DNA from: a virus
Taxonomy: Duplodnaviria > Heunggongvirae > Uroviricota > Caudoviricetes
Reading direction: 5' to 3' (one strand)
IMG/VR virus record: IMGVR_UViG_3300029305_011318
Length of the DNA stretch: 64,000 bases
Each line of letters starts with the position of its first letter. Position 1 is the first letter of the stretch. The notes beneath the pieces were generated by a model. The model was not told where the DNA came from. It saw only the letters and a list, made by a program, of their open reading frames with translations, and made no database searches. A program made the position numbers and the translations under genes. Below, in pieces: positions 5,055-57,453 of the stretch.

Positions 5055-6746
5055 TTATACAGAAAAATATTGAATTAAGTCAGATAAATTATTAGCAATC
5101 GCATTTACCTGTTGAATAGTATTATTAATTTGGACCACTGATTCGGCTATATCTTGAATTGTGGCTGTAATTTCTTGATTACTTGCTGCACTTTCTTGTG
5201 AAATAGCACTAAGGTCATCAATATTTTGAAGAATTGTTTGTTTACCTAAATCTAATTGAATAGTTTTATTTTGAATATTATTAGTAAGCACAATATTTTT
5301 TTGGATTGCTTCATTTAATTCTTGGAATGCTTGTGAAGCATTCATAATATTTTGTTGTTCTTGTGTAATAATATTTTTTATATTTTCGGATAAAGTAACA
5401 GAATCTGTTGATTTTTGCAATATGTCTTGAACAATATTTTGAATTGTTTCTGCGCCCAATTCACTTTGTTCGGATAATTTTTTAATTTCTTCTGCGACTA
5501 CTGCAAACCCTTTGCCTTGCTCTCCGGCACGAGCTGCTTCAATAGATGCATTTAAACTTAATAATTTTGTCTGATTGGAAATATCTAAAATTAATGCAAC
5601 TGCATCATTAATTTTTATAATTGCATTATTTGTATCGTCTATTTGTGTCGAAATTTTTGATACTGCATCTTGAGATTTTTGTGAACCTTCCAAAACAGTA
5701 TTGACAGACAAAGATGCTTGCTGATTTGCATCTTCCATAATCGTTGTTAATTGGTGTAAGGAAGAAATATCCGTATTAATTTCTGATATATGATTACTTA
5801 CAGAAATAATTTCTGTATTCATGTCTTGTGTTTCTTGTGCAATAGACGTTGCTGTAACGGATAATTCATCCATAGCAATACTTATTTGTTGCATTCCGGT
5901 AGAATTACTATCTGTAGCTTCTTGTAAATTCGTAATCATGTGGTTCATATTTAATACATTTGATTGAATATTTGTAATAATCTCATTTAATTTGTTTTTT
6001 AATATATGGGCTGTATTAATTAATTGTTGTGTTTCATTTAATATAGAATGTACTTCAATCGAATCTGTTAAAGAACCATTTGTTATATTTTCAATAATAT
6101 TTACAGTTTTTGACATTGGGGATTTTACTAATTTAGCGACTAATAATAAAATAATACTAAAAACGATTAGCAAAATGGTCCCAATTATAATGAAACCAAT
6201 CAACATTTGATTAATTGCATTTGTAACTAGTATTTCTTGTTCGCCGGCAAAAGCCATTCCAAATATTTCTCCATCCGCGTCATATACCGGAGTATAGTAA
6301 ACAAAATATTTTTTACCAGCAATATCAATATTGTGAGCTTGATAATCCTGCCCTGTTTTGACAACATCTCAAATTTCTGCATCTGCTTTGATGCCTTCAA
6401 CACGATTTCCTTTATCGTCTTTAATGGAGGAAATGAAACTTGTATCTTTTTCAAAAAGGGTTAAAACAATATCATCTTCCATTAAAGAATCAATAAATTC
6501 ATAACTGGTTTCATCTTTGCACAATATTTCTTCTGCAATGTCCCATTCAAAATATTGTTCAACTGATACTGCACATGTTTTTAATCTTAAATAAATATTA
6601 TTAACAATTTCTTTTTTTAATTGATTGGATGAATAAAATATTGTGACAAATAATGTAGTAATGAGTGGAATTAAACCAATTAAAAAAAAGGTAAAAAATA
6701 AATTCAATTTACGTTTTCTTTTCATAAATACCTCATTAATTCTCAT
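5055..6746 (-). pseudogene. Methyl-accepting chemotaxis protein gene interrupted by one in-frame TGA at 6369..6371
   Basis: ORFs 6369..6746 (TM1 plus Cache-like sensor) and 5055..6368 (TM2 plus MCP signalling domain [34 protein letters not shown]) are in the same frame, separated only by ...[17 protein letters not shown]... Confidence 0.7.
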
Positions 6747-14019: not shown

Positions 14020-14220
14020 TCATAATGGTTTTATAAAAACAGGATATATGCTGCAAATCATATACCCTAACATACCTATACCAAAAATAAATTCTCCTAG
14101 TTTATCTACAAAATCAGCATATGGTTCTTCACGATATTGAATGCTAATCAGCAACAAAACAAATCCAACCATTAACAAGGAGACACAAAATAATTTCATA
14201 CAAAGTAAAAGTGGTATCAT
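14020..14220 (-). CDS. Small membrane protein
   Basis: 66 aa, two hydrophobic helices. 1-nt overlap with the cca stop. Confidence 0.4.
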   Translation of the reverse strand: MIPLLLCMKLFCVSLLMVGFVLLLISIQYREEPYADFVDKLGEFIFGIGMLGYMICSIYPVFIKPL

Positions 14221-15611
14221 TATCTTTCAAAATCCATCTCAAAATCTTTTTCTATTTGTAGATATTGTTGCACTTCATTTAATAAATTTGGTTTGGTGTT
14301 AGGCACTTCATCATTGATTACTTTTTCTAATAAATGATTTAATATCTCTCCAATCATAGGTCCAGAGGACAATTGATATGTATTTATTAAGTCTTTTCCG
14401 TTAATTGCTAAATCATTTAATTTGAAAGCAGCATCTTCGTCTTTAATTTGTTGTAAATATGTATCAATTTCAAAAATTTCGCCCCATGTAGGTATAATAT
14501 TGTCCGGAAAAATATGGTCTTTGACATCTGCATGATGTATTTTCATTAAAGCTTGTAAATTTTCTTCCCCAAATTTATTTAGATTTTTTTTGACAAATCG
14601 TAAAGAGTTTTCAAAATTATAATCATGGTATTGAACTAATATTAATAGTTTCTCTTTTTCTTTTTTGGTTAAAGTTAAATCATATTGACAAATGTTTTCA
14701 GTAATTTCTTTACTTTTTTCCGGATGACCGTGAAAAGTTCCTTTGCCATTAATTTGTTCATAACACGCTGGTTTTCCTATATCATGAAATAATCCTGCTA
14801 ATTTAGTAATAAAATCATCAGATTCAATAGCATCGGTTACACACAAACAATGTTCATACACATCATGTTCATGGTATGGATTATTTTGCTGGAAATTAAA
14901 TGATGGTCTAAAATCAGTGATAAGACTGCCAATAACATCTTTATATTCTAAAAAAATATCATGAATAGGTTGTCCACAAGTTAATATTTTGCGAAATTCT
15001 TCTGTTACTCGTTCTTTGGAAATGTTACTTAACAAATATACATTTCTATGAATCGCTTCTGCTGTTTCTTTTTCAATTGTAAAGCCATATTTAATAGCAA
15101 AACGTAATGCTCGTAGTATTCGTAAAGCATCTTCTTCAAATCTTTGGTCCGGATTACCTACAGCTCGAATGATACCATTTTTTAAATCTTCTCTTGCTCC
15201 TTCTACTTCTACATATCCTTTTGTTGGATGATAAGCAATTGCATTAATCGTAAAATCACGTCGTTTTAAATCTTCCATAATATCTTTTGTAAATTCAATG
15301 TTATCCGGATGGCGATTATCTGCATATCCATTCTCTTTACGATATGTGGTAATTTCATAATCATCATTTACACCTTGTATTATAAGGGTTCCGAATTTAG
15401 TGCTATTATTATTTTCATAAAAGGACATATTATTATGTTGGAATAATTCTTTCATTTCATCCGGTGTTAAATTTGTGCATAAATCAAAATCATTAGGTGT
15501 TTTATGTAGTAACATATCTCTTACAAATCCACCAACAAAATATAATTCTGTGTCCTTATTCCATTTCTCAAACATTGGAAATAAATCTAATGGTCCATGA
15601 AGAAAAATCAT
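14220..15611 (-). CDS. cca: CCA-adding tRNA nucleotidyltransferase with HD domain
   Basis: GGFVRD, RDFTINA, HD block LFHDIGK. ATG at 15611 preceded by AAGGAGAG. Box-1 variant at 15663..15688. Confidence 0.85.
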   Translation of the reverse strand: MIFLHGPLDLFPMFEKWNKDTELYFVGGFVRDMLLHKTPNDFDLCTNLTPDEMKELFQHNNMSFYENNNSTKFGTLIIQGVNDDYEITTYRKENGYADNRHPDNIEFTKDIMEDLKRRDFTINAIAYHPTKGYVEVEGAREDLKNGIIRAVGNPDQRFEEDALRILRALRFAIKYGFTIEKETAEAIHRNVYLLSNISKERVTEEFRKILTCGQPIHDIFLEYKDVIGSLITDFRPSFNFQQNNPYHEHDVYEHCLCVTDAIESDDFITKLAGLFHDIGKPACYEQINGKGTFHGHPEKSKEITENICQYDLTLTKKEKEKLLILVQYHDYNFENSLRFVKKNLNKFGEENLQALMKIHHADVKDHIFPDNIIPTWGEIFEIDTYLQQIKDEDAAFKLNDLAINGKDLINTYQLSSGPMIGEILNHLLEKVINDEVPNTKPNLLNEVQQYLQIEKDFEMDFER

Positions 15612-15721
15612 ATAACTCTCTCCTTTATTGTTCATTTATAAAAACTTACACTTCTATATGTATAAATTTTCTTCAAAAATAATAAGCCACTAACATAATA
15701 ATGTTAATGACTTAAAATAAA

Positions 15722-42080: not shown

Positions 42081-42962
42081 TTAATAGAATAATTTGGCGA
42101 ATTCGGAATCTTTATCAAGAACAATTTTCTTTTCTTTTGTGCCGGAAATGCTATCTTTTAGTGAATCTAATTGGAGAAGATAATTATAAAATTCTGCTTT
42201 GTCTTCATTATTATATGCATCTTGTAAAATTCGCATATATTCTGCTTCACCTTCTGCTTCTAAAACACTTGCTTCTTTTTCTGCCTGTGCAAGCATTACG
42301 GTAACTTTTTTATCGGCTTCATTGCGGATTTTCTGTGCTTCTGATTCTCCTTGCGCTTTATAAGAGGCGGCAATGTTTTCACGTTCAGAAATCATTCTCT
42401 GATATACCGCTTGTTTATTTCCTTCCGGTAAATCTAATAATTTAATTTCTGCTTTTACAATTTCGATACCATAGCCGGTTACTGCATTATTGGAAATATT
42501 CGTAATTTTATCTGTTAATGTTGTACCTCTTGATGCTACGACATCATCTTGTGTCATCGAACTAATAATGTTTTTTGTTGCATTGTAAACTGCAACACTG
42601 GTTCTGCTTTCTGCATTTCCAATAGATGCATTTAATGTTTGTGAAAATTTAATCGGGTCTGTGACTCTCCACAAAACATAATTATCAGTTACCATTGATT
42701 TTTTATCACTGGTAATAACATCTGATTTTGTTACATCATAAAATTGAACACTTTTAGGGCAACGAATAATTTTATCTACAATAGGTGTTTTAAAATATGG
42801 TCCTGCTTCTGTTTTTACTTCATAAATTTTTCCAAATCGAGAAACTAAGGCATATTCATTTTCTTTTACTTTATAAAAAGATGTAAAAAATGCCAATGTT
42901 CCGATAATGAATAAAGTTAAAAATGTTAAAATGAAATATTTATTCTTCATAATAGCCTCCAA
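42081..42962 (-). CDS. hflC: SPFH/band-7 protein, HflC-like
   Basis: N-terminal TM then YKVKENEYALVSRFGKIYEV..GPYFKTPIVDKI. Coiled-coil C-terminus. Confidence 0.8.
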   Translation of the reverse strand: MEAIMKNKYFILTFLTLFIIGTLAFFTSFYKVKENEYALVSRFGKIYEVKTEAGPYFKTPIVDKIIRCPKSVQFYDVTKSDVITSDKKSMVTDNYVLWRVTDPIKFSQTLNASIGNAESRTSVAVYNATKNIISSMTQDDVVASRGTTLTDKITNISNNAVTGYGIEIVKAEIKLLDLPEGNKQAVYQRMISERENIAASYKAQGESEAQKIRNEADKKVTVMLAQAEKEASVLEAEGEAEYMRILQDAYNNEDKAEFYNYLLQLDSLKDSISGTKEKKIVLDKDSEFAKLFY

Positions 42963-43976
42963 TTACTGTGCGAAATCATCTAATGGCAATAATGTTTCAG
43001 AAGTCCCGTCTGTAATGATTAAATCTGCTTTAGGTAAAATTTCATTCATAGATTCATAAAACATACGTTGCTTGGTAATCGCCGGATATTTAATATATTC
43101 TTCATACATATTATTAAATCTGGCAACTTGTCCTTCTGCTTCACTAATACGAGCTGCTTTATTAGCTTCTGCCGTCTGCATAATTTTGTCATATTCGGCT
43201 TCTGCTTGTGGAATGCGTTCATTTGCATATTTTTTGGCATTATTAATAGTAGTGTCTTTATTTTGACGTTCTTGTTCTACTGATTCAAATGCTACCATAA
43301 TTTCTTGTGATGGTGGTTCCGCATCTTGAATTTGTAAATTAACAATTTGGACACCAATATCGTTTTTAGCAAGTTCATTAATAATCATATCTTTTACATC
43401 AGATTGAATCTGATTTTTACCAGTTGTAATAACATCATCTACTGTGTAATTACTTACTATGGTACGAATACATGCTTGTGCAATATTTCGTAAAATATTT
43501 TCCGGTTCATCAGATGTATATAAATACGTGGCTGCATCACTTACTTTATATTCCAAATAAAAATCAACATTAACAAAATTAAAATCGGATGTAATCATTA
43601 GTGATTCTTCCGGTACGCTAATAATATCCTCTGAAGGACGAGAACCAAATAGTTCTGATAAAGATGATTTTTCTGATTCCTCAACTTCTCGATAACCAAT
43701 TTGTAATCCTTGTGTTGTAGTATTAACCTTTTGAATTTTATCAACAAAAGGAATTTTTAAATGTGGTCCTGCTGTTTCTGTTTTTACAACTTTTCCAAAT
43801 CGAGTAATTACTGCTTGTTCTTGTTCATTTACTTTATAAAAAGATGTAAATAGACAAATAGCACATATAATTACGATACAACCTAATAAAATTTTACCAA
43901 TTAAAAATTTGTCTTCTGATGGCGAATTAAGATTTGGTCCATCGAATGAAATTATTACATCTCCGAAAAATGACAT
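42963..43976 (-). CDS. hflK: SPFH/band-7 protein, HflK-like
   Basis: TM then YKVNEQEQAVITRFGKVVKTETAGPHLKIPFVDKI. Adjacent to the hflC-like gene with no gap. Confidence 0.8.
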   Translation of the reverse strand: MSFFGDVIISFDGPNLNSPSEDKFLIGKILLGCIVIICAICLFTSFYKVNEQEQAVITRFGKVVKTETAGPHLKIPFVDKIQKVNTTTQGLQIGYREVEESEKSSLSELFGSRPSEDIISVPEESLMITSDFNFVNVDFYLEYKVSDAATYLYTSDEPENILRNIAQACIRTIVSNYTVDDVITTGKNQIQSDVKDMIINELAKNDIGVQIVNLQIQDAEPPSQEIMVAFESVEQERQNKDTTINNAKKYANERIPQAEAEYDKIMQTAEANKAARISEAEGQVARFNNMYEEYIKYPAITKQRMFYESMNEILPKADLIITDGTSETLLPLDDFAQ

Positions 43977-45488: not shown

Positions 45489-48400
45489 TTAATGATAATC
45501 ATTATTAGTTTGATGTGTTGTACGATAATGTACTTCGTCTACTAATGGCTCGATAATGATATAATGATTATCTGTAATCGCATTATGTATGCCGGTGCTT
45601 CCAATAATTTCATATTTCCAATATTCGGGAATGTCTACTTTGGAACCTTCCGGAATAATAATATTTGTGCCATCTTCTCCAAACATATCTGCATTTACAT
45701 AGGTTGCAAAAGCATATTGAGCTGTTGCACCATTAACAATTTTGGTTATATCATTCATGTCTGTAACATCAATTTTTGTAGCAATTTTTGTATCAATAGG
45801 TACAATATGTAATGAGAGATTTCGTTTAAATGCTTCATACCCATTAATATTGTCTACGCCCAAATTAAAGATAGCGTCTAATTTACCATTTTTAATATCT
45901 TCTGCAGATTGAATACCTGGGGCAAATGTACCATCTAATTTATAACCAAGAAAATTGAATTTTACGTTTTCAACATATCCAATTGTCCATATTTCAACAT
46001 GTCCATTGTTTCCTGCTGCAAAATATACTTGGTCGTCATAATTAAATACATCATTTTCATTATAAATAACTGTTTTTAATGAAAAATTATACAAATATCC
46101 TTTCGCTGTTCCACCATTAAACGGGTTGGTATTCATTGGGTCGGTTGAAAAATCACCAATAGGGTATCCATCCTCTGTAATACCTTGTGAACCAGTATAA
46201 TTAGAACCTGTTTGTAATTTAGTATGATTTCCTGCATTATCAACTACAATAATAGTATAACCTAAATAGTTTACGCCTTTAAATTCTTTGTAGAGATTAA
46301 TGGTTGTATTATAATTATAAGTATCTCCAGACGCAGAAGTTTGTGCCATTTCATATGTATGGTTTGTAATTGGATTATCAACATCCCATACATATAATAA
46401 TACTTCTTTAATGCCAGAAATAGAATCATTACTTCCTGCAGCAATTGAATCATCTTTTCTATCTGAAACTTTAACATCAAATGTAGTCGTAAAATCATTA
46501 TCTTTAATAATGTTTTCCATTTCTGTTCGTAACGCTTCTTTTGTTAAACCATTACTTATGACAGGAAATTCATCTAAAGTTTTTTGATTAACAGAAAAAT
46601 ATTCAATTGTTGGTGCAGTCTTATCTAATTTAATATGGGAAATATTATCATTGATGCTATATCCACCATATCCATATGTTACTTTTCGAATATTGAATGG
46701 GTCATTTAAAACATTGTTTTCAATACAATCTTTAATATTGTTTCGTGCCCAGTTTAACGTAGCTGCTTCCGGAATTACATAATATTCGCCTTGTACCATA
46801 TAATCTACGGTATTAATAACCGTTCCTGTTGGATATGCTGCTTTCAAATGATAAATATCATCTGTATTGTTTTGAATGTAATTTTTTAATAAATCTGTAC
46901 GTAAAATCTTTTCATCATTTTCTTTGATTTCTGTACGATATTCTGAATATTTTGTCATCGGTATTGTTCCGGATATATCTTCATGTGACATACCTAAATA
47001 TATTAATGAGGAAGCGTCTATATCAATTCCAGAATACGAATCTTTATAAAATGGTCCAAATGGTTCATAAGTTGGTAATTTATAATTACTAACATTATTT
47101 TTTTGTGGTAATAAATATTGTGCAATAGCATATAAACCATGTGATTTTGATGATAATATTTGTGACACAGATGCTGTCTTTGACCAATAAGATGGATTTG
47201 TTGGTTTAGACAATGATTCAATAAATAATGTTTTACGAATTAAATTCCAGCCACCATTATCATTTGGTATGGTTAATAATTCACCCATATTGATATTAGA
47301 AATACGATTCGTAATAGTATTATATCCGGATGTATCATCATCTATAGATGAATATACTGAAACAACATTTCCATTTTCATCAATTAACTCATATTGTGTA
47401 AGTAAAACAGAAAAATCATCATTTCCGCTTTGATAGTAATTAGTGTCTGCTTCTTTAATAACGGTACTTACTTCATATGTAGTATATGTAAAATTCTGAT
47501 AAAAAGTTTCATTTGTCCAAATAGCATATACTTCAATTTGAGGTATATCTTTTATATCTTGATATGTAAAATCATACTCTTGTTTTGTTTTGCCTAAGCT
47601 TTCAACAATAGAATCAAAAGTTGTATTTTTTACGTCAATATTATAAGTTGTATTATCAACAACATTTGTAAATGTTATTAATTCGCCATTTGGATTTGAT
47701 GTTAGGAAAATACCAGTTCCATCTGGTTTCGTATTCCAACCTAAGAAAGTAAATCCGGTAATGGACGTTGTTGGTAAACTTCCGCCATAATCTAATTCTA
47801 AATTATCAATATCATTTAAATTTTCATAGGTATATTCAATACCATTTGTTCCCCAATAACCAGAAATACCAGTCATGTCTTGTCCAGTATGTTTATTGAT
47901 TCTTGTAAAATCAATAGATTCATTATATGCCGGTACATTTTGTGGTTTTCTTACTATGACACTAGGGTTACTTGTACTTGTACCATAATGATATAAATAA
48001 TCTAAATTAGTATTGAAATTAATTTGATATATTTCTGGTTTCCATTGTGCATAAAGCGTCATAATGGTTCCATATTTTTCTAAAATATAGTCATATGTAA
48101 TTTCAGTACCTGGTGCAATTGTGTCTCCTGTTCCATCTGGTTTGGTATTCCAACCAATAAATATGAAACCTTTTTTAGTTAATTCAATATCTTCATTTAT
48201 TGTTTTATTTTCTTTTACAAAAACACTGGTCCCCGGAATAAGTTCTTGTGTAACAATCTCACCTTCTGTTGCAATATTTGCACCCCCGTATTTGTTACAA
48301 TATTCATCGTTGGTACTGTATTCTAAGAAAGATGATAATGGAATTTCAAATGTTACCGTTTCACTAACATTTCCGCTATTATCTACAGTAGCAACATGAA

Positions 48401-50924
48401 CATAATATACTTCATCTTGCCTTTCCATAATAAAATTAGCGGATTCTGTAAAATTAAAAACATTTTGATATGCAGATGTTGTTCCACCTGGGGCATTAGC
48501 ATTGATAATATCAAGTTCTGTTTTAATATCACATGCTGTTTCTTTTTGGTCTACATAGTAATAATATCCTTTTGTACCGGAACAACCGTCCATTTCCAAT
48601 ACATTACTTTCATATAATAACTCATTAGAATTTGCACTATCTTCATAAGCTTCTAATTTATATAAAAACGTACCACCGTTGTCTTTACAATTATTCCAAC
48701 CAATTGACATTTCTGTATCGGATGCACGTTTTAAAATTCGTTTTTCCGGTGCGTCCGGTGCCCATATATCATTTGGATTAATTTTAAAATCAGCGTCTAA
48801 AGCAGTAATTTTGCAATCTGTATCTAAGAATTGTAAAGTAGCTGAACCATTACCTGCATTTACAACATCTTGAGTAGAAATAATTTTTGCTTGTAAAAAC
48901 TCATTTGTATTAACGCCATTGGTTCCTGGTCTGATGCGGGAGCCTCCATACCAGCCACCACCGCCACCACCATAAATTCTTCTGGCGTTACCTTCATTAT
49001 TAACTATATAATTCGCACCAATACTATTTGTCATGCCACCTGTTGAGTTAACGCTACCATTAGCACTGTTATATGTAGATATACAATGTACATAATAAAT
49101 AGAAGAAATGGCACTTCCGCCACCTCCACCTCCTGCAACTACAATACGATTGCCTTGTGAAGTTCCATTTAAACGAAAATCAGTAGCACCACCACCACCA
49201 CCAGAACCGGCATACCATGTGGTATTTTTTGCATATTTATCCCATGCACTACCACTTGTTTTTGATTTAAAATAGGCCTCTAAATTATGTTCACAATCAT
49301 CCCAACATCCATTATATTTACGTACTGTACGATTTGCTGTGGTTGCTCCTAATCCGCCACCATTATAACCAGCATTTCCAGTTCCTGCTGCTCCTCCTAC
49401 ATAAACATATATGGTATCTCCATATTGCAAATGTACATTAGCTTGAATTTTTCCTCCATTACTGCCAACACCTTGTTTATCATAAATTCTTTGATTACAA
49501 TGTTCGCATTTGATAGAAGATTGTGCATATGCATCTCCACCACGACCACCTAATGCTGTTAATTGATAAGTTCCGGTTGCTTTTACTTTATATGTGTAAT
49601 ATCCATTACCGGTATAAGCATAAGATTTACTGATTTCATTTTCATCAAAACTATATCCATTGACATTGATTTTATCATAAGTAAGTCCATCATCCATGCT
49701 CGCATAAAAAACATAGTATTTTGGTATACCATCATCAATAGCATCAACGTGAATCGTATTTTCTGAACTTTCAGAAATATTAATAGGACCATCAAATAAA
49801 TAATGGGCAAGATAATAATTATCTTCTAAACCAAATACATAAGATGTTCCTGTCATAATTCGATTTGGATTAGCAGAAATATCTTTTCTATCTGTCCAAT
49901 ATCTAAATTTGTAGCCATCTCTTTTGGCTTCTTCTAAAATAATTTCTGTACCATATTCACAGGTAATTTCTACATCTCCGGTATTTCCATTATAACTACC
50001 ATGTTCTCCTGTTGATAATATTAATGTACTTTTTAAAGTTTCTTTATAAGTAATTGTGGCTTTTCCATGTCCGAAATGAGTTCCTTCTTCTATATGTTCA
50101 TCTGAAATTTTATCTGAAAAATAACTAATTCCACCATATCCATCAGATGCTCCATACCAAAAACATGGACCACCATAATAACCACCACCGGATGCAGCTG
50201 TATACCATGCAGTAAAATGCCCACAATCGCCTTGATTTAATTGTGAATCTGTTCCTTTACCTAATATATCATTGCCAGAAGATAAAAAGTTACCATATGT
50301 AATTTGGTCTTCATTGGGTACATCAACATGTGATTCTACTAAACCACCACCTCCTCCGGCAACTAAAATTCTACTTTCTAAACTATTGGTATCATTCCAA
50401 TTTCCGGATATAAGTCTAAAATCACTTGCTCCTCCTCCAGAACCTGTTTTGTATTCAATATACTCAATATCATCTGGGTCGGCACATAAAGCATCACTAT
50501 GTTTAGTATGACCGCTTTTTCCTAATCCACCACCATTAAAAGTCGCTGGATTTTCAACTAAATCAATATTTCCGTGTTCACCAAGATAAATGTATAAGGT
50601 ATCATTTTGTAATAATTTTATTTCACCTGCCGTATATCCGCCATAACCTTTTCTGGAATTAGAAGTGGCTCCACCACCAGATGCTCCCCATGCTTCTAAT
50701 TCATATATTCCATTTGCGGGACATGTCCATTTATATACATGGTCACTAATTTGTTCAATTTCGTTTACATTGTCTGCCACATCATAGTTAAAATTCCATT
50801 CCGTAACAGATAAGTTTTCTGCAGCATAAACAGGGATGGGTACTGAAATACTAGCCCCAATCATTGCAATAGATAAAATAGTTGATAATAATCTATTGAT
50901 GTTTATTTTTGTAATATGCTTCAT
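45489..50924 (-). CDS. Giant secreted Gly-rich surface protein with Listeria-Bacteroides (Flg_new) repeats
   Basis: Signal peptide MKHITKININRLLSTILSIAMIGASISVPIPVYA. Multiple poly-Gly blocks (GGGGGLVESH, AGGGGGGSA, GGGGGGWYGG). Two F(I/L)GWNTKPDGTG repeats. 1811 aa. Confidence 0.7.
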   Translation of the reverse strand: MKHITKININRLLSTILSIAMIGASISVPIPVYAAENLSVTEWNFNYDVADNVNEIEQISDHVYKWTCPANGIYELEAWGASGGGATSNSRKGYGGYTAGEIKLLQNDTLYIYLGEHGNIDLVENPATFNGGGLGKSGHTKHSDALCADPDDIEYIEYKTGSGGGASDFRLISGNWNDTNSLESRILVAGGGGGLVESHVDVPNEDQITYGNFLSSGNDILGKGTDSQLNQGDCGHFTAWYTAASGGGYYGGPCFWYGASDGYGGISYFSDKISDEHIEEGTHFGHGKATITYKETLKSTLILSTGEHGSYNGNTGDVEITCEYGTEIILEEAKRDGYKFRYWTDRKDISANPNRIMTGTSYVFGLEDNYYLAHYLFDGPINISESSENTIHVDAIDDGIPKYYVFYASMDDGLTYDKINVNGYSFDENEISKSYAYTGNGYYTYKVKATGTYQLTALGGRGGDAYAQSSIKCEHCNQRIYDKQGVGSNGGKIQANVHLQYGDTIYVYVGGAAGTGNAGYNGGGLGATTANRTVRKYNGCWDDCEHNLEAYFKSKTSGSAWDKYAKNTTWYAGSGGGGGATDFRLNGTSQGNRIVVAGGGGGGSAISSIYYVHCISTYNSANGSVNSTGGMTNSIGANYIVNNEGNARRIYGGGGGGWYGGSRIRPGTNGVNTNEFLQAKIISTQDVVNAGNGSATLQFLDTDCKITALDADFKINPNDIWAPDAPEKRILKRASDTEMSIGWNNCKDNGGTFLYKLEAYEDSANSNELLYESNVLEMDGCSGTKGYYYYVDQKETACDIKTELDIINANAPGGTTSAYQNVFNFTESANFIMERQDEVYYVHVATVDNSGNVSETVTFEIPLSSFLEYSTNDEYCNKYGGANIATEGEIVTQELIPGTSVFVKENKTINEDIELTKKGFIFIGWNTKPDGTGDTIAPGTEITYDYILEKYGTIMTLYAQWKPEIYQINFNTNLDYLYHYGTSTSNPSVIVRKPQNVPAYNESIDFTRINKHTGQDMTGISGYWGTNGIEYTYENLNDIDNLELDYGGSLPTTSITGFTFLGWNTKPDGTGIFLTSNPNGELITFTNVVDNTTYNIDVKNTTFDSIVESLGKTKQEYDFTYQDIKDIPQIEVYAIWTNETFYQNFTYTTYEVSTVIKEADTNYYQSGNDDFSVLLTQYELIDENGNVVSVYSSIDDDTSGYNTITNRISNINMGELLTIPNDNGGWNLIRKTLFIESLSKPTNPSYWSKTASVSQILSSKSHGLYAIAQYLLPQKNNVSNYKLPTYEPFGPFYKDSYSGIDIDASSLIYLGMSHEDISGTIPMTKYSEYRTEIKENDEKILRTDLLKNYIQNNTDDIYHLKAAYPTGTVINTVDYMVQGEYYVIPEAATLNWARNNIKDCIENNVLNDPFNIRKVTYGYGGYSINDNISHIKLDKTAPTIEYFSVNQKTLDEFPVISNGLTKEALRTEMENIIKDNDFTTTFDVKVSDRKDDSIAAGSNDSISGIKEVLLYVWDVDNPITNHTYEMAQTSASGDTYNYNTTINLYKEFKGVNYLGYTIIVVDNAGNHTKLQTGSNYTGSQGITEDGYPIGDFSTDPMNTNPFNGGTAKGYLYNFSLKTVIYNENDVFNYDDQVYFAAGNNGHVEIWTIGYVENVKFNFLGYKLDGTFAPGIQSAEDIKNGKLDAIFNLGVDNINGYEAFKRNLSLHIVPIDTKIATKIDVTDMNDITKIVNGATAQYAFATYVNADMFGEDGTNIIIPEGSKVDIPEYWKYEIIGSTGIHNAITDNHYIIIEPLVDEVHYRTTHQTNNDYH

Positions 50925-51071
50925 TATACTTCTCCTTGTTATATATATATAAATAATGTTTTGTTATAAAATCTCTATTTTTATATGTATAAAATATTGT
51001 TAAAAACAATAAAAAAATAAGATTGGATTTATCCAATCTTATATAATATCTCATTTTTATTTTTTTAAATA

Positions 51072-51527
51072 TTAAGTATTTTCTTTAAAACAATTACTCA
51101 TACATTTTATGAAAATAGAAATAATTATAATTATCGCTAATAAAATGATTGTAATGGGATTTGTAATACATAAAAGAAAATAACCGACATATGGAATATA
51201 AAATATTATTTTTCCTTGAAAATTTTTTTCTGTTACATATATTTTATCTGGATTATCATTATTATCCCCTTTGGTTTCAAATCCTTCATTAGTAATAGCG
51301 ATAACCCGATGTATCACCATTGTATTAGTTGAAGTATTAAAGGCTATAATATCGTCTTTTTTAATATCATTATATTGATAATTCATATCTACGAAACAAA
51401 TACTACCTGTTTTGATAATCGGTTCCATAGACTTAGATAATACTTTATATGGGCGAATGCCTATTAATGATGCTATTGTAATTATTATGATTAATAATAA
51501 AATAATAAAGCAAATAGTATAAGACAC
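51072..51527 (-). CDS. Signal peptidase I, SipW/ER-type (Ser-His)
   Basis: SKSMEP box, VIHRVIAI (His where P-type enzymes have Lys), KGDNNDNPD box E. N-terminal TM. Confidence 0.7.
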   Translation of the reverse strand: MSYTICFIILLLIIIITIASLIGIRPYKVLSKSMEPIIKTGSICFVDMNYQYNDIKKDDIIAFNTSTNTMVIHRVIAITNEGFETKGDNNDNPDKIYVTEKNFQGKIIFYIPYVGYFLLCITNPITIILLAIIIIISIFIKCMSNCFKENT

Positions 51528-51586
51528 TATTTTACATATTTTTTCACGTAATTTTCTCCTAAAAGTTTGTTTTTTTAATATATATA

Positions 51587-53040: not shown

Positions 53041-54201
53041 TTATCCATTGTAGTTATAAATAATTTGCATATTAGATGGACATTCGTAATTCCAATAATC
53101 TCCAAATGTGATTGCATTCCATTGTTCTTCTGTTCCTTCATAATAAATTGTAGTTAAACCGCTACAATAAGCAAACGTAACACGACCAATAGAAGTCACG
53201 CCAACAGGAATATTGATGCTGGTTAAGCCTTCACACTCATAAAATGCATTATTTCCAATACTTGTAACACCTTCTGGAATGGTGATGCTGGTTAAACCTG
53301 TACAACCGTCAAATGCATTATTTCCAATACTTGTAACACCTTCTGGAAGGATAATACTGGTTAAACCTGTACAGCCAGCAAATGCCCAATTCCCAATGCT
53401 GGCAACACTGTCTGGAATGTTTATGCTGGTTAAACTCCTACAACTGATAAATGCACGACTCCCAATACTGGTTATTCCTTCTGGGATTACGACCTTTGTT
53501 ATTGTTGTTGGACAGGAGCCAATAATATCACTTGCATTTGAACACATTTCATCAATTCCACTTTCTTCCCAAGACGCAACCATCACACCATCTGCATCAT
53601 ATAAACCAGCTTCAAGAGTTGCAATGGATTCACTTGATTCAATCACAATTTCCCAATCTAATGTAGTTGTCCATGTACCAGGTGTAAGTTTTTCCGGTAC
53701 AGGGAACATTTCATCTGAAGATAAGGTAATTGCCCATGTTTCATTACTAGTAGTTGCTGTACAATGTAAATCATTATCAAAATAAGAAGTTTTTGACTTA
53801 GATATAGCATTTACAGTAATTGGTCTATAATCCCAGACAACTTGTTGACCGCCTACTTCAATCATTTGTTCAAGTATACGGGTAAATGTTGCATCTTGTG
53901 GTATATCTGGTGGTATATTTTGGTCTTCCCATAAATTAACTGATAAAACAGTATCCGGTTTTAATGCATATTTTCCATTAATATCAAAAGTTACTTGGTC
54001 TGTGTCTGCTAACGCAGAACCATCTACAACTGTTGGAAATGAAAATTCCACATATTCATCAATAGAAAAATTTAAAACAGTTTCCATTTCTGCAGTATTA
54101 GGGCTATCAAATTGAATTGTACTATCATTTGCATATACACAAATGGTATTGCTTATCATGATAAAAATTATTAATAATAAACTAAATAATTTCTTTTTCA
54201 T
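53041..54201 (-). CDS. Secreted BspA-type leucine-rich-repeat protein with N-terminal beta-rich domain
   Basis: Signal peptide. Repeats ITSIGNNAFDGCTGLTSITIPEGVTSIGNNAF. The N-terminal domain is paralogous to 54244..54780. Confidence 0.7.
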   Translation of the reverse strand: MKKKLFSLLLIIFIMISNTICVYANDSTIQFDSPNTAEMETVLNFSIDEYVEFSFPTVVDGSALADTDQVTFDINGKYALKPDTVLSVNLWEDQNIPPDIPQDATFTRILEQMIEVGGQQVVWDYRPITVNAISKSKTSYFDNDLHCTATTSNETWAITLSSDEMFPVPEKLTPGTWTTTLDWEIVIESSESIATLEAGLYDADGVMVASWEESGIDEMCSNASDIIGSCPTTITKVVIPEGITSIGSRAFISCRSLTSINIPDSVASIGNWAFAGCTGLTSIILPEGVTSIGNNAFDGCTGLTSITIPEGVTSIGNNAFYECEGLTSINIPVGVTSIGRVTFAYCSGLTTIYYEGTEEQWNAITFGDYWNYECPSNMQIIYNYNG

Positions 54202-54243
54202 ATATTAAACTCCTTGTGCAAACGAATTGTTTATTAGGTGTTG

Positions 54244-54780
54244 TTATTCGATTATGATTTCCCAATTTAAAATAGTGTTCCATATTCCGGGTGTAAATTT
54301 AGTGTCTTCATTAGTAAAAGAAATAAGACCTATCATTTCTATTGGTTCTCCATTTGGACCGCCCAATATGGCATCACATGAATAAATTACAGATGGAAGT
54401 TCAACATTTAAAGGAATTTCTTCTGAAGTTTCTGTGTTCGTCAAATTGATTTCAGAAAAAATAAAACCGTTAGTTTCATTATTAAGGACAGGTTCTGTAT
54501 CACTTGTAATTTTTAATAAAAGATTATGATTACTTTGAATTTCTCCTTTTGCTGTATATGTAAAAGGAATAACATCACCATCTGTTAATTCAGAACAATC
54601 AATCATTGCCGGAACAGACACTTCTACCCATTCCTCTATTTCTGCAATTACATCTGTTTGTGCTGTGCCATAACCACTTTCGTCTAAAACAATAGTGGTT
54701 TCTTCAGCAGACACTAATAACGTGCTGCTCATAAGTAATGATAAAATTAATAATAGTCCACATATTTTTCTTGTTTTCAT
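54244..54780 (-). CDS. Secreted protein, paralog of the N-terminal domain of the LRR protein
   Basis: Signal peptide. Ends TPGIWNTILNWEIIIE; compare TPGTWTTTLDWEIVIE in the neighbour. Confidence 0.6.
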   Translation of the reverse strand: MKTRKICGLLLILSLLMSSTLLVSAEETTIVLDESGYGTAQTDVIAEIEEWVEVSVPAMIDCSELTDGDVIPFTYTAKGEIQSNHNLLLKITSDTEPVLNNETNGFIFSEINLTNTETSEEIPLNVELPSVIYSCDAILGGPNGEPIEMIGLISFTNEDTKFTPGIWNTILNWEIIIE

Positions 54781-56949: not shown

Positions 56950-57453
56950 TTAATGTGTTGGTAAAAATATTGCTTTCCCAATAATATCTTTCTTTTTTAC
57001 AAGCCCAACTTCCGGAAATCGACTATCAACACTATTATTGCGATTATCGCCTAAAACAAAATATTCGTTTTGCTTTATATAAATTGGTTCTGAAGCGATA
57101 CCAGTATATAAAATCGTATCTAAATCTAATTTTTCTTGATATATTTGATTATTAATAATTATATCGCCATTTTGATTAATTTGTATGGTATCTCCCGGCA
57201 ATCCAATAATACGTTTAATAAAATATACGCCTCGTGAACAACTTTGTGGATGAAAAGCAATAATATCATTTCTTTGTGGTTCTTCAATATGATAAATAAA
57301 CTTATTAGCAATAAAATTATCCCCATCATGTAATGTTGGGTACATAGAACTTCCAGAAACTTTACCTCTTTGGGCAACAAAAACGGTAATAATAAAAGTT
57401 AAAAAAATTATACTATAAAATAAAATATCAAAAATTTTATGTTTTTTTCTCAT
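56950..57453 (-). CDS. lepB: Signal peptidase I, bacterial P-type (LepB)
   Basis: SGSSMYPTL, KRIIGLPGD, GDNRNNSVDSR boxes. N-terminal TM. Confidence 0.8.
   Translation of the reverse strand: MRKKHKIFDILFYSIIFLTFIITVFVAQRGKVSGSSMYPTLHDGDNFIANKFIYHIEEPQRNDIIAFHPQSCSRGVYFIKRIIGLPGDTIQINQNGDIIINNQIYQEKLDLDTILYTGIASEPIYIKQNEYFVLGDNRNNSVDSRFPEVGLVKKKDIIGKAIFLPTH

What the first reader, a model, noticed from the sequence alone, without database searches (positions are those of the whole stretch)
45489..51527. SipW-type (Ser-His) signal peptidase immediately upstream of an 1811-aa Gly-rich, Flg_new-repeat surface protein
The 151-aa peptidase has the ER/archaeal-type boxes (SMEP, HRV, GDNN). In Firmicutes this type is dedicated to cognate substrates such as TasA-like fibre proteins. 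The adjacent giant protein has a signal peptide, several poly-Gly blocks and two Listeria-Bacteroides repeats, which suggests an adhesin, fibre or receptor-binding protein processed by its private peptidase. It could be a tail-fibre-like structural protein or a lysogenic-conversion adhesin.
Basis: partly seen in the sequence, partly recalled or inferred. Interest (0 to 1): 0.55.

Follow-up and report, generated by a model that had tools for sequence, protein, structure and literature searches.

The report
Orphan SipW-type peptidase beside exported giant protein
A large integrated phage-like element carries an ER/SipW-type signal peptidase next to a 1811-residue exported protein built from phage tail-fibre-type glycine-rich binding domains, but the evidence indicates that the two are neighbours in a cargo region, not a dedicated enzyme-substrate pair.

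Summary
Both ORFs exist exactly as described. The 151-aa protein is an ER/archaeal (SipW-type) signal peptidase: TIGR02228 108.8 bits against a cutoff of 51.85, and its best solved relatives are human SEC11C/A. The 1811-aa protein has a Sec-type signal peptide, two ALK/LTK-type glycine-rich domains (GRDs) and Listeria-Bacteroides repeats.

The "private peptidase" reading is not supported:
- In 84 loci encoding relatives of the peptidase, a GRD protein lies within 10 kb once. TasA/BsaA-like proteins with the SipW-cognate signal peptide lie nearby in 71, with a median gap of 17 bp.
- The window has no TasA-like gene.
- None of 15 GRD-protein loci has such a peptidase.
- The giant's signal peptide fails TIGR04088.
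- A stable terminator-like hairpin separates the two genes.
- The peptidase's 5' end is disrupted, and the called ORF lacks the Lys/Arg N-terminus that all 56 homologues have.

Most likely this is an exported binding protein carried as prophage cargo, next to an orphaned peptidase.

The parts
51072..51527 (-). ER/archaeal (SipW-type) signal peptidase I ORF, 151 aa as called. Ser33 (SMEP), His73 (HRV), GDNN at 87-90; hydrophobic segments at both the N- and C-terminus.
51527..51560 (-). Anomalous 5' end of the peptidase gene. RBS AGGAG at 51556-51560; GTG at 51545-51547 opens a 6-codon mini-ORF (VKKYVK*) whose TAG (51527-51529) overlaps the called GTG start (TAGTG). One extra A in the AAAA run at 51530-51533 would restore MKKYVKIVSYTICF..., the Lys-rich N-terminus typical of the family.
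   Evidence: 56 of 56 homologues have K/R before the anchor and the window ORF has none; identical in a second contig of the same sample
51007..51042 (-). Terminator-like hairpin (11-bp stem, 4-nt loop) followed by a T-run, lying between the peptidase stop codon and the giant's start codon.
   Evidence: fold -14 kcal/mol, z -3.38, 0 of 200 shuffles as stable
45489..50924 (-). Giant exported protein, 1811 aa, with its own RBS (AAGGAGAAG, 7 nt upstream of the ATG). No LPXTG motif and no transmembrane segment after the signal peptide.
50823..50924 (-). Predicted Sec signal peptide (aa 1-34), with inferred cleavage at VYA|AE. It is not of the SipW-cognate class.
50025..50810 (-). GRD1 (aa 39-300): ALK/LTK-type glycine-rich domain. 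It starts with TEWNFNY, as does the N-terminus of C. difficile phage PtsM-type receptor-binding proteins.
48807..49640 (-). GRD2 (aa 429-706): a second glycine-rich domain.
48330..48806 (-). FN3-like unit (aa 707-865), conserved across the giant-protein family (motifs ..GYYY.. and ..VDNSGN..). Assigned from alignment only.
47514..48242 (-). Two Listeria-Bacteroides (Flg_new) repeats (aa about 895-965 and 1040-1137; motifs GFIFIGWNTKPDGTG and GFTFLGWNTKPDGTG). A third, degenerate copy lies near aa 340.
45492..46652 (-). Conserved C-terminal module (aa 1425-1811) that defines a rare family of giant secreted Firmicute proteins. It models as tandem beta-sandwiches.
56950..57453 (-). Second signal peptidase on the element, a bacterial LepB/P-type enzyme (SGSSMYPTL ... 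GDNRNNSVDSR). It is an alternative enzyme for processing the giant.
53041..54780 (-). Two further signal-peptide proteins (386 aa with BspA-type LRR_5, and 178 aa) that share an N-terminal domain. They belong to the same export-related cargo cluster.
60049..61434 (-). Tyrosine integrase at the edge of the element.
61650..61720 (+). tRNA/tmRNA-like 3'-end fragment followed by a GC-rich terminator hairpin. Probable attachment-site remnant marking the right boundary. GC rises to 0.395 beyond it, where TetR-like and AcrB-like host genes lie.

Best explanation
The two genes are neighbours in the integrase-proximal accessory region of a large (about 125 kb or more) phage-like element integrated in a low-GC Firmicute. 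They are not a cognate enzyme-substrate pair.

The giant gene encodes a Sec-exported, non-anchored protein with many domains: signal peptide, GRD1, a Flg_new-like unit, GRD2, an FN3-like unit, two Flg_new repeats and a conserved C-terminal beta-sandwich module. Its glycine-rich domains have the TNF-like/polyglycine fold that phage tail fibres and ALK/LTK receptors use to recognise ligands. GRD1 is of the type found at the N-terminus of C. difficile phage receptor-binding proteins.

Inferred mechanism: the giant is transcribed from its own start, exported through Sec, and cleaved after VYA(34) by whichever type I signal peptidase is available (the host's, the element's LepB-type enzyme, or possibly the SipW-type one). 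It then acts outside the cell as a binding or adhesive protein of the lysogen.

The SipW-type peptidase belongs to a clade whose members sit directly beside TasA/BsaA-like matrix-fibre genes. Here those partners are missing and the gene's 5' end is disrupted. It is best read as an orphaned and possibly decaying remnant of such an operon, or at most a generalist helper.

Shown: the domain identities, the fold, the lack of conserved linkage, the hairpin and the 5' lesion. Inferred: export, the cleavage site, extracellular binding, and the functional state of the peptidase.
For: Peptidase type.

Canonical partners of the clade:
- TasA-like genes lie within 10 kb in 58 of 84 loci with the seed HMM, and in 71 of 84 after iteration.
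- In all 71 the nearest one is on the same strand; the median gap is 17 bp and 57 lie within 100 bp.
- Of those 71 neighbours, 54 match PF12389, 47 match TIGR04090 (BsaA) and 45 match TIGR04088.
- The same arrangement is seen in single look-ups and on an unverified phage scaffold.
- The window has no TasA-like ORF at E<=1.

No conserved link between the two genes:
- A GRD protein lies near the peptidase in 1 of 84 loci.
- A SipW-type peptidase lies near a GRD protein in 0 of 15 loci, even at weak thresholds.
- The closest full-length homolog, P0002, has none within 10 kb upstream.

Other points against a dedicated pair:
- The giant's signal peptide is not TIGR04088.
- Hairpin between the genes, and the giant has its own RBS.
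- 5' lesion of the peptidase gene.
- Second, LepB-type peptidase on the element: Pfam S26, 142.5 bits.

Nature of the giant:
- PF12810 twice.
- Profile hits to ALK, LTK and SCD-2 structures.
- 32 C. difficile phage records carry the domain in the slot after the tail-fibre gene and before the lysis genes.
- PtsHN10M of that family is an experimentally shown receptor-binding protein (PMC9615553). The Pam3 glycine-rich domain is the distal receptor-recognising tip of its fibre (PMC9608196).
- All 18 family relatives have signal peptides.

Accessory, non-structural surroundings in a phage-like element.
Against: - Adjacency on the same strand with only a 147-nt gap is what an operon would look like, and AT-rich hairpins can be leaky.
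- One locus (L056) has a SipW-type peptidase 1.5 kb upstream of a 2341-aa GRD giant. Another (L098) has TasA-like genes directly after a 2399-aa GRD giant. A loose association between GRD giants and these operons therefore cannot be excluded.
- SipW-type enzymes are not known to be restricted to TIGR04088 signal peptides (my own knowledge, not tested here).
- The mini-ORF/TAGTG arrangement could support translational coupling, so the peptidase may still be made. The apparent frameshift could also be an assembly error.
- The signal peptide and cleavage site are heuristic calls.
- The other half of the element was not examined, so phage identity rests on non-structural genes only.
- The 80 genome loci are the best-scoring of 525 or more relatives, not a random sample.
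Confidence: 0.58

Rival explanations
1. One reading: the SipW-type peptidase is a private processing enzyme for the adjacent giant protein. The two are co-expressed, and the peptidase removes the giant's signal peptide to release or assemble a fibre or adhesin.
For: - Same strand with a 147-nt gap.
- The clade is typically dedicated to neighbouring substrates.
- L056 has a related peptidase 1.5 kb upstream of a GRD giant.
- L098 has TasA-like genes abutting a GRD giant.
Against: - No TIGR04088-type signal peptide (with the positive control).
- Linkage in 1 of 84 and 0 of 15 loci.
- In L056 and L098 the GRD is C-terminal, so those giants are not orthologues of this one, and L056 has its own three TasA-like genes.
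- Terminator-like hairpin, and the giant has its own RBS.
- Peptidase 5' lesion.
- The closest homolog P0002 lacks a peptidase nearby.
Confidence: 0.14
2. The peptidase serves the other exported proteins of the cluster (the 178-aa protein and the 386-aa BspA-LRR protein 1.5-3.7 kb upstream), as a captured LRR-protein-plus-SipW module. The giant is unrelated cargo.
For: - One of the closest homologues (P0047, 51% identity) sits immediately downstream of an LRR_5/SLH protein in L005 and L006.
- The window has an LRR_5 protein with a signal peptide upstream on the same strand.
- In L051 an LRR_5 protein carries an AYLQ-type N-terminus.
Against: - LRR_5 proteins lie near the peptidase in only 4 of 84 loci.
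- The window's LRR protein has an ordinary signal peptide with no TIGR04088 hit.
- A tRNA gene and four small ORFs lie between them.
- Similarity to the L005 protein is confined to the LRR repeats.
- The peptidase 5' lesion applies here too.
Confidence: 0.12
3. The giant is a virion structural protein (a giant tail fibre or receptor-binding protein) and its hydrophobic N-terminus is not a cleaved signal peptide.
For: - GRD1 is 33-39% identical to the N-terminal GRD of PtsM-type receptor-binding proteins and shares the TEWNFNY start.
- The fold matches the solved Pam3 tail fibre and Bxb1 tail brush.
- Large phages often have very large fibres (my own knowledge).
Against: - The phage homologues start at the GRD with no leader, whereas this protein has a 40-residue K/R-plus-hydrophobic-plus-VYA extension.
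- All 18 family relatives also have signal peptides.
- Neighbours are accessory genes (signal peptidases, SPFH pair, GNAT, ORFans) with no tail or lysis genes.
- No family member was found in 2.9 million IMG/VR contigs.
- Only residues 41-199 match phage proteins.
Confidence: 0.08

Closest known systems
SipW of Bacillus subtilis and SipW-BsaA of Clostridium perfringens (ER-type signal peptidases in tapA-sipW-tasA-like operons)
   Same: Same enzyme type: TIGR02228 above cutoff, Ser-His boxes, best solved relatives SEC11A/C, and a C-terminal hydrophobic anchor. Its closest relatives lie in TasA/BsaA-like operons.
   Different: No TasA/BsaA-like gene in the 64-kb window. Below the Bacillus SipW equivalog cutoff (88.7 against 190). 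Carried on a phage-like element. The 5' end is disrupted and the Lys/Arg N-terminus is missing.
PtsM-type receptor-binding proteins of C. difficile myophages and diffocins (e.g. PtsHN10M, phiCDMH1 gp30)
   Same: Homologous glycine-rich domain beginning TEWNFNY, 33-39% identical over about 150 residues. The PtsM family binds the S-layer protein SlpA (PMC9615553).
   Different: PtsM proteins are about 565 aa, have no signal peptide, sit between the tail-fibre gene and the lysis genes, and bind their receptor through a C-terminal domain that has no counterpart here. The window protein is 1811 aa, has a signal peptide and two GRDs, and lies in an accessory region.
ALK/LTK/SCD-2 extracellular glycine-rich domain; Pam3 gp24 tail-fibre tip; Bxb1 gp33
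   Different: Sequence identity is only 20-25%. The Gly-rich insert of the model (residues 164-231) is low-confidence, so the polyglycine lattice itself was not confirmed. The protein context is entirely different.
Giant secreted GRD-containing surface proteins of Firmicutes and other bacteria (uncharacterised; P0002-P0040, P0112-P0127)
   Same: A signal peptide or pilin-like leader, a GRD, and Flg_new, Cna_B or Ig-type repeats. The window protein shares its whole architecture and C-terminal module with 18 representatives.
   Different: The window protein and P0002 form a subfamily with two N-terminal GRDs of the phage receptor-binding type. It is carried on an integrated phage-like element.

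Membership tests
ER/archaeal-type (SipW-type) signal peptidase I | Curated family model matched above its cutoff, in preference to the bacterial P-type model | tested here: met
   TIGR02228 108.8 bits (cutoff 51.85); TIGR02227 46.2 (cutoff 47). Profile against PDB: SEC11C 1.7e-21 against bacterial SPase I 6e-4.
ER/archaeal-type (SipW-type) signal peptidase I | Catalytic Ser (SMxP box) and His (HRV box) in place of the Ser-Lys dyad, plus conserved Asp residues (GDNN...D) | tested here: met
   S33, H73, D88 and D94 are invariant in alignment A1, which includes named SipW proteins; box positions.
ER/archaeal-type (SipW-type) signal peptidase I | Intact N-terminal membrane anchor preceded by a positively charged region | tested here: not met
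   The called ORF starts directly in the hydrophobic segment. All 56 homologues have K/R there (median 3). The ancestral start appears to be cut off by a 1-nt frame change.
Bacillus SipW (equivalog NF046067) | Score at or above the equivalog cutoff | tested here: not met
   88.7 bits against a cutoff of 190. It is of the same type but is not an orthologue of Bacillus SipW.
SipW-TasA/BsaA matrix-fibre operon | A TasA/camelysin/BsaA-family gene (PF12389, TIGR04090) adjacent to the peptidase | tested here: not met
   No hit in the window at E<=1, against 71 of 84 related loci with a median gap of 17 bp.
SipW-cognate substrate (TIGR04088 signal peptide class) | The giant's N-terminus matches the SipW-dependent-type signal peptide model | tested here: not met
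   No TIGR04088 hit for residues 1-60 at E<=10. The model detects 45 of 71 true neighbours.
SipW-cognate substrate | Cleavage of the giant's signal peptide depends on this peptidase | not testable with these tools
   Needs genetics or an in vitro cleavage assay.
ALK_LTK_GRD (PF12810) glycine-rich domain | Family HMM above the gathering score | tested here: met
   131.8 bits against 24.5, two stretches; profile hits to solved ALK, LTK and SCD-2 structures.
ALK_LTK_GRD (PF12810) glycine-rich domain | TNF-like beta-sandwich plus glycine-rich subdomain fold | tested here: met
ALK_LTK_GRD (PF12810) glycine-rich domain | Lattice of polyglycine-II helices | tested here: inconclusive
   The Gly-rich insert (model residues 164-231) has pLDDT below 50.
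Phage receptor-binding protein of the PtsM type | N-terminal GRD homologous to PtsM-family proteins | tested here: met
   33-39% identity over query residues 41-199, E down to 3e-16, in 32 C. difficile phage records; shared TEWNFNY start.
Phage receptor-binding protein of the PtsM type | Gene in the tail module, after the tail-fibre gene and before holin/endolysin | tested here: not met
   Neighbours are a signal peptidase, ORFans and an SPFH pair. Compare.
Phage receptor-binding protein of the PtsM type | Cytoplasmic protein with no signal peptide | tested here: not met
   A 40-residue leader with signal-peptide features precedes the GRD.
Phage receptor-binding protein of the PtsM type | Present in virions | not testable with these tools
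   Needs particle proteomics.
Sortase-anchored (LPXTG) or SLH-anchored surface adhesin | C-terminal LPXTG-type sorting signal, SLH domain or membrane anchor | tested here: not met
   No LPXTG-like motif and no hydrophobic 19-mer after residue 60; no such Pfam or NCBIfam hit.
Listeria-Bacteroides repeat (Flg_new, PF09479) proteins | Repeat model above the gathering score | tested here: met
   29 bits against 27, two stretches. TIGR02543 is below its cutoff at 16.8 against 20.95, so this is marginal.
Integrated temperate phage | Integrase next to an att-type boundary, with phage-typical gene content | tested here: met
   Integrase; tRNA/tmRNA-like fragment and GC step; ThyA, NrdG, NrdD with intein, RNA ligase, HNH, T5orf172, tRNAs and ROOL.
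Integrated temperate phage | Capsid, portal, terminase and tail genes | not tested
   None in the window. The other roughly 54 kb of the contig was out of reach of the tools.

The most novel reading that the evidence does not exclude
The prophage exports a giant protein built from its own tail-fibre-type receptor-recognition heads. This protein could coat or mask the receptor on the lysogen's own surface, giving superinfection exclusion by a secreted decoy. Alternatively it could bind other cells or host surfaces as a conversion adhesin. The element would bring its own signal-peptidase capacity (one LepB-type and one ER-type enzyme) to process this and the other exported cargo proteins.
Probability: 0.1. 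Interest if true: 0.7.

Novelty: new member of a known kind. Interest (0 to 1): 0.33.

Why it matters
If the pairing had held, it would have extended SipW-type 'private peptidase' biology from TasA-like fibres to a new class of giant substrates, on a phage. It does not hold, which is useful in itself: adjacency to a SipW-type peptidase is not enough to call a cognate substrate. A quick test is available, namely the presence of a TasA/BsaA-like neighbour with a TIGR04088 signal peptide, which applies to about 85% of the relatives sampled here.

Three things of moderate interest remain:
(i) A rare family of giant secreted Firmicute proteins (18 representatives among 1.84 billion proteins), one of which rides on a prophage. 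Its N-terminal domains are of the type that phages use for host recognition, which suggests traffic of binding modules between virion and cell-surface proteins.
(ii) A large temperate phage-like element that carries two evolutionarily distinct signal peptidases. Either type is found in fewer than 0.05% of phage records.
(iii) The same cargo region holds a full-length ROOL RNA.

Tried and rejected
- TIGR04088 on the giant's and the LRR protein's N-termini: no hit.
- Megablast of 20 kb against phages and plasmids: only a tRNA match.
- Single-protein scans of IMG/VR: one truncated GRD protein for the giant and nothing for the peptidase. Alignment-based scans for the giant's family found nothing.
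- The first peptidase alignment (A1) was too diverse for pattern extraction, so it was replaced by A3.
- PHROG scan of the genes upstream of the closest homolog P0002, to test for a tail module: only LysM hits, inconclusive.
- The third large protein search, with the C-terminal 432 aa, returned nothing, not even the query protein itself. As a result the genomic contexts of P0112-P0127 could not be retrieved.
- phmmer of the whole giant against PDB sequences: no hit. The GRD profile was needed to find ALK/LTK.
- LRR_5 as a conserved partner of the peptidase: 4 of 84 loci, rejected. The N-terminal domain shared by the 178-aa and 386-aa proteins has no relatives in the peptidase loci.
- Consensus promoter scan: 67 sites against 67.6 expected, uninformative in this AT-rich DNA.
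- Literature search for phage-borne SipW found nothing specific.
Full report
OBSERVATION

Both ORFs are present at the stated coordinates on the minus strand: 51072-51527 (151 aa, GTG start) and 45489-50924 (1811 aa).

The small protein carries SMEP, HRV and GDNN at residues 33, 73 and 87. It scores 108.8 bits on TIGR02228 (archaeal/ER-type signal peptidase I, cutoff 51.85), and falls just below the cutoff of the bacterial model TIGR02227 (46.2 against 47). In an alignment with named SipW proteins, S33, H73, D88 and D94 are invariant. A profile of that alignment finds human SEC11C and SEC11A as the best solved relatives (E 1.7e-21 and 1e-19), against 6e-4 for bacterial SPase I. The enzyme type is therefore confirmed. 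It is not an orthologue of Bacillus SipW in the strict sense, because the equivalog model scores 88.7 bits against a cutoff of 190.

The giant protein starts MKHITKININRLLSTILSIAMIGASISVPIPVYA|AENL. This has three basic residues, a hydrophobic core and V-Y-A at positions -3 to -1. It has four runs of 5-6 glycines, no LPXTG-like motif and no later hydrophobic segment. Pfam gives two Flg_new stretches (29 bits, cutoff 27).

CONTEXT

The window is the right-hand half of a JGI metagenome contig of about 127-128 kb. All genes run on one strand and GC is about 27%.
- A tyrosine integrase lies at 60049-61434.
- Next comes a tRNA/tmRNA-like 3' fragment with a GC-rich terminator hairpin at 61650-61720.
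- Beyond that lie TetR-like and AcrB-like genes, where GC rises to 0.395.
- Inside the element are ThyA, NrdG, HNH and T5orf172 nucleases, a CCA-adding enzyme, RNA ligase, SIR2, an NMN transporter, NrdD with an intein, two tRNAs, a full-length ROOL RNA and long runs of small ORFans.

This is the non-structural part of a large temperate phage-like element. No capsid, tail or lysis genes occur in the window, and the rest of the contig was out of reach.

The pair lies 9-15 kb from the integrase, in a cluster of export- and membrane-related cargo:
- a LepB-type signal peptidase (56950-57453; Pfam S26, 142.5 bits);
- a GNAT acetyltransferase;
- two secreted paralogues, one with BspA-type LRRs (53041-54780);
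- an SPFH pair (42081-43976).

IS THE GIANT THE PEPTIDASE'S COGNATE SUBSTRATE?

Five independent lines of evidence say probably not.

(1) What relatives of the peptidase sit next to. I collected 84 loci that encode relatives: 80 from species-representative genomes, mostly rumen or gut Lachnospiraceae, Erysipelotrichaceae, Bacilli and Saccharibacteria, plus 4 weak ones from IMG/VR.
- A GRD protein lies within 10 kb in one locus only, L056.
- TasA/camelysin-like genes lie within 10 kb in 58 loci using an HMM built from only two Pfam-annotated seeds, and in 71 after iteration.
- In all 71 the nearest one is on the peptidase's strand. The median gap is 17 bp, and 57 lie within 100 bp.
- Curated libraries confirm the identity of those 71 neighbours: 54 match PF12389, 47 match TIGR04090 (BsaA family SipW-dependent matrix protein), 45 match TIGR04088 (SipW-dependent-type signal peptide) and 23 match TasA.
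- Individual look-ups show the same picture. So does the only long phage-labelled scaffold with such a peptidase, where three TasA-like genes follow it directly.
- The window contains no TasA-like ORF, even at E<=1.

(2) The reverse direction. None of 15 loci with GRD proteins has a SipW-type peptidase in the available flanks, even at very weak thresholds. The closest full-length homolog, P0002 (31% identity over both ends, with its own signal peptide), has none within 10 kb upstream.

The giant's N-terminus gives no TIGR04088 match at E<=10. The 45 of 71 positive controls show that the model is present and sensitive.

(4) A hairpin between the genes. An 11-bp hairpin followed by a T-run (51042-51007) lies between the peptidase's stop codon and the giant's start codon. 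It folds at -14 kcal/mol, z = -3.38, and none of 200 shuffles folds as well. The giant has its own strong RBS.

(5) A disrupted 5' end. The only good RBS (AGGAG, 51556-51560) serves a GTG at 51547 that opens a 6-codon ORF, VKKYVK*. Its TAG overlaps the called GTG start (TAGTG). One additional A in the AAAA run would give MKKYVKIVSYTICF..., which is the N-terminus seen in relatives. All 56 homologues with a recognisable catalytic motif have Lys/Arg residues before the membrane anchor (median 3), while the called ORF has none. A second contig from the same sample is identical, so this is not independent confirmation. The lesion could be an assembly error, a recent inactivating mutation, or be rescued by translational coupling. 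I cannot tell which.

Two observations temper this conclusion. In L056 a 2341-aa GRD giant starts 1.5 kb downstream of the peptidase. In L098 TasA-like genes follow a 2399-aa GRD giant. However, in both the GRD is near the C-terminus, so these giants are not orthologues of the window's protein. L056 also has three TasA-like genes around its peptidase. BspA-type LRR proteins, which precede the peptidase in one of its closest homologues, recur in only 4 of 84 loci.

WHAT THE GIANT IS

The match of the giant to phage records starts at residue 41, just after the predicted cleavage site. Thirty-two C. difficile phage records carry a protein of about 565 aa that begins MTTEWNFNY... (the giant has TEWNFNY at residues 41-47). 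That gene lies directly after the 'tail fiber protein' gene and before holin/endolysin. A member of that family, PtsHN10M, is 54% identical to the phiCDMH1 protein. It has been shown experimentally to be the receptor-binding protein, with a conserved N-terminal Pfam glycine-rich domain and a C-terminal part that binds SlpA (PMC9615553).

Cellular proteins with this domain are large surface proteins that start with Sec or pilin-like leaders and carry Flg_new, Cna_B, cadherin-like, dockerin or T9SS domains.

The C-terminal 387 residues define a rare family: 18 representatives among 1.84 billion proteins. Nearly all are 1.6-2.7 thousand residues long, all have signal peptides, and they carry the module at the extreme C-terminus, usually ending DVHYR(V/T)THE(S/N). 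The module models as tandem beta-sandwiches with no specific structural match. No member of the family was found in IMG/VR.

INTERPRETATION

The giant is best read as a Sec-exported extracellular binding protein of a cellular type, with no recognisable cell-wall or membrane anchor. Its recognition heads are shared with phage receptor-binding proteins, and it is carried as cargo by a temperate phage-like element. Its ordinary signal peptide could be cut by any type I signal peptidase, including the intact LepB-type enzyme 5.4 kb upstream.

The SipW-type gene looks like an orphan from a TasA/BsaA-type operon. Export, the cleavage site, extracellular binding and the activity of the peptidase are inferences. 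What is shown is the domain and fold identities, the statistics of gene linkage, the hairpin and the 5' lesion.

NOVELTY AND SCORE

Each component is a new member of a known kind. Signal peptidases are rare in phage records: 4 of 50,697 for the SipW type and 21 of 50,697 for the LepB type, mostly in unverified fragments. An element with both types is unusual but not conceptually new.

The most novel reading still open is that the prophage secretes a decoy or adhesin built from tail-fibre-type heads, and supplies its own processing enzymes. I give this about 10% probability. Overall interest is about 0.33.

Noticed in passing
window 57748-58321 (-), abutting tRNA-Gln 58308-58379 (-): Full-length ROOL RNA (RF03087, model positions 1-574 of 574, 294 bits against a gathering score of 99.1), directly downstream of and overlapping the end of a tRNA-Gln gene, inside the element's cargo region.
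   Followed up: partly
window 56950-57453 (-): A second signal peptidase, of the bacterial LepB/P-type (Pfam S26, 142.5 bits; SGSSMYPTL ... GDNRNNSVDSR), so the element carries two evolutionarily distinct type I signal peptidases. Relatives occur in only 21 of 50,697 phage records.
   Followed up: partly
window 51527-51560 (-): A 6-codon mini-ORF with a good RBS, whose stop codon overlaps the peptidase's GTG start (TAGTG). One extra A would restore the family-typical N-terminus MKKYVKIV.... This could be a homopolymer error, a real frameshift or translational coupling.
   Followed up: yes
window 61650-61720 (+): tRNA/tmRNA-like 3' fragment (T-arm CGGGTCCGATTCCCG; faint tmRNA 3'-end hit, E 0.25) followed by the hairpin GGTCCGGATTTCCGGACC and a T-run. 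Probable att remnant next to the integrase. ARAGORN and Rfam at gathering thresholds report no gene here.
   Followed up: partly
window 42081-43976 (-): Two adjacent SPFH/Band 7 (HflK/HflC-like) membrane proteins, 26% identical to each other, just downstream of the giant gene cluster.
   Followed up: no
window 53041-54201 and 54244-54780 (-): Two signal-peptide proteins share an N-terminal domain ending ..TPGxWxTxLxWEIxIE. The larger one adds BspA-type LRR_5 repeats. The shared domain has no Pfam hit and no relatives in the 84 peptidase loci.
   Followed up: partly
L056 3148-12103 and L098 3548-12964: Two unrelated genomes place a giant protein (about 2300-2400 aa) with a C-terminal GRD directly beside a TasA-like operon, with a SipW-type peptidase in L056 and without one in L098. 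This may be a loose recurrent association between GRD giants and matrix-fibre operons.
   Followed up: partly
P0007, P0009, P0010, P0013, P0016, P0017, P0024, P0027: Many cellular GRD giants begin with a type IV pilin-like leader (..KGFTLVE.. or ..KGFVVSAVLYPLL..) and not a Sec signal peptide, which suggests GRD heads mounted on pilus-like fibres.
   Followed up: no
L108 16287-19550 (contig region about 6-9 kb to the left of the window): Anaerobic ribonucleotide reductase NrdD interrupted by an intein with a LAGLIDADG endonuclease. A HipA_C-like gene follows it.
   Followed up: no
window 5055-6257, 14220-15635 and 28274-28915 (-): Unusual cargo for a phage-like element: a protein with a methyl-accepting chemotaxis signalling domain, a full CCA-adding tRNA nucleotidyltransferase with an HD domain, and a CAP-domain (PF00188) protein.
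   Followed up: no
window 62369-63985 (-): The AcrB-like ORF in the host flank matches only the C-terminal half of the AcrB profile (positions 487-1020 of 1021) yet is bounded by a stop codon close to the window's end. It may be a split or truncated efflux pump gene.
   Followed up: no
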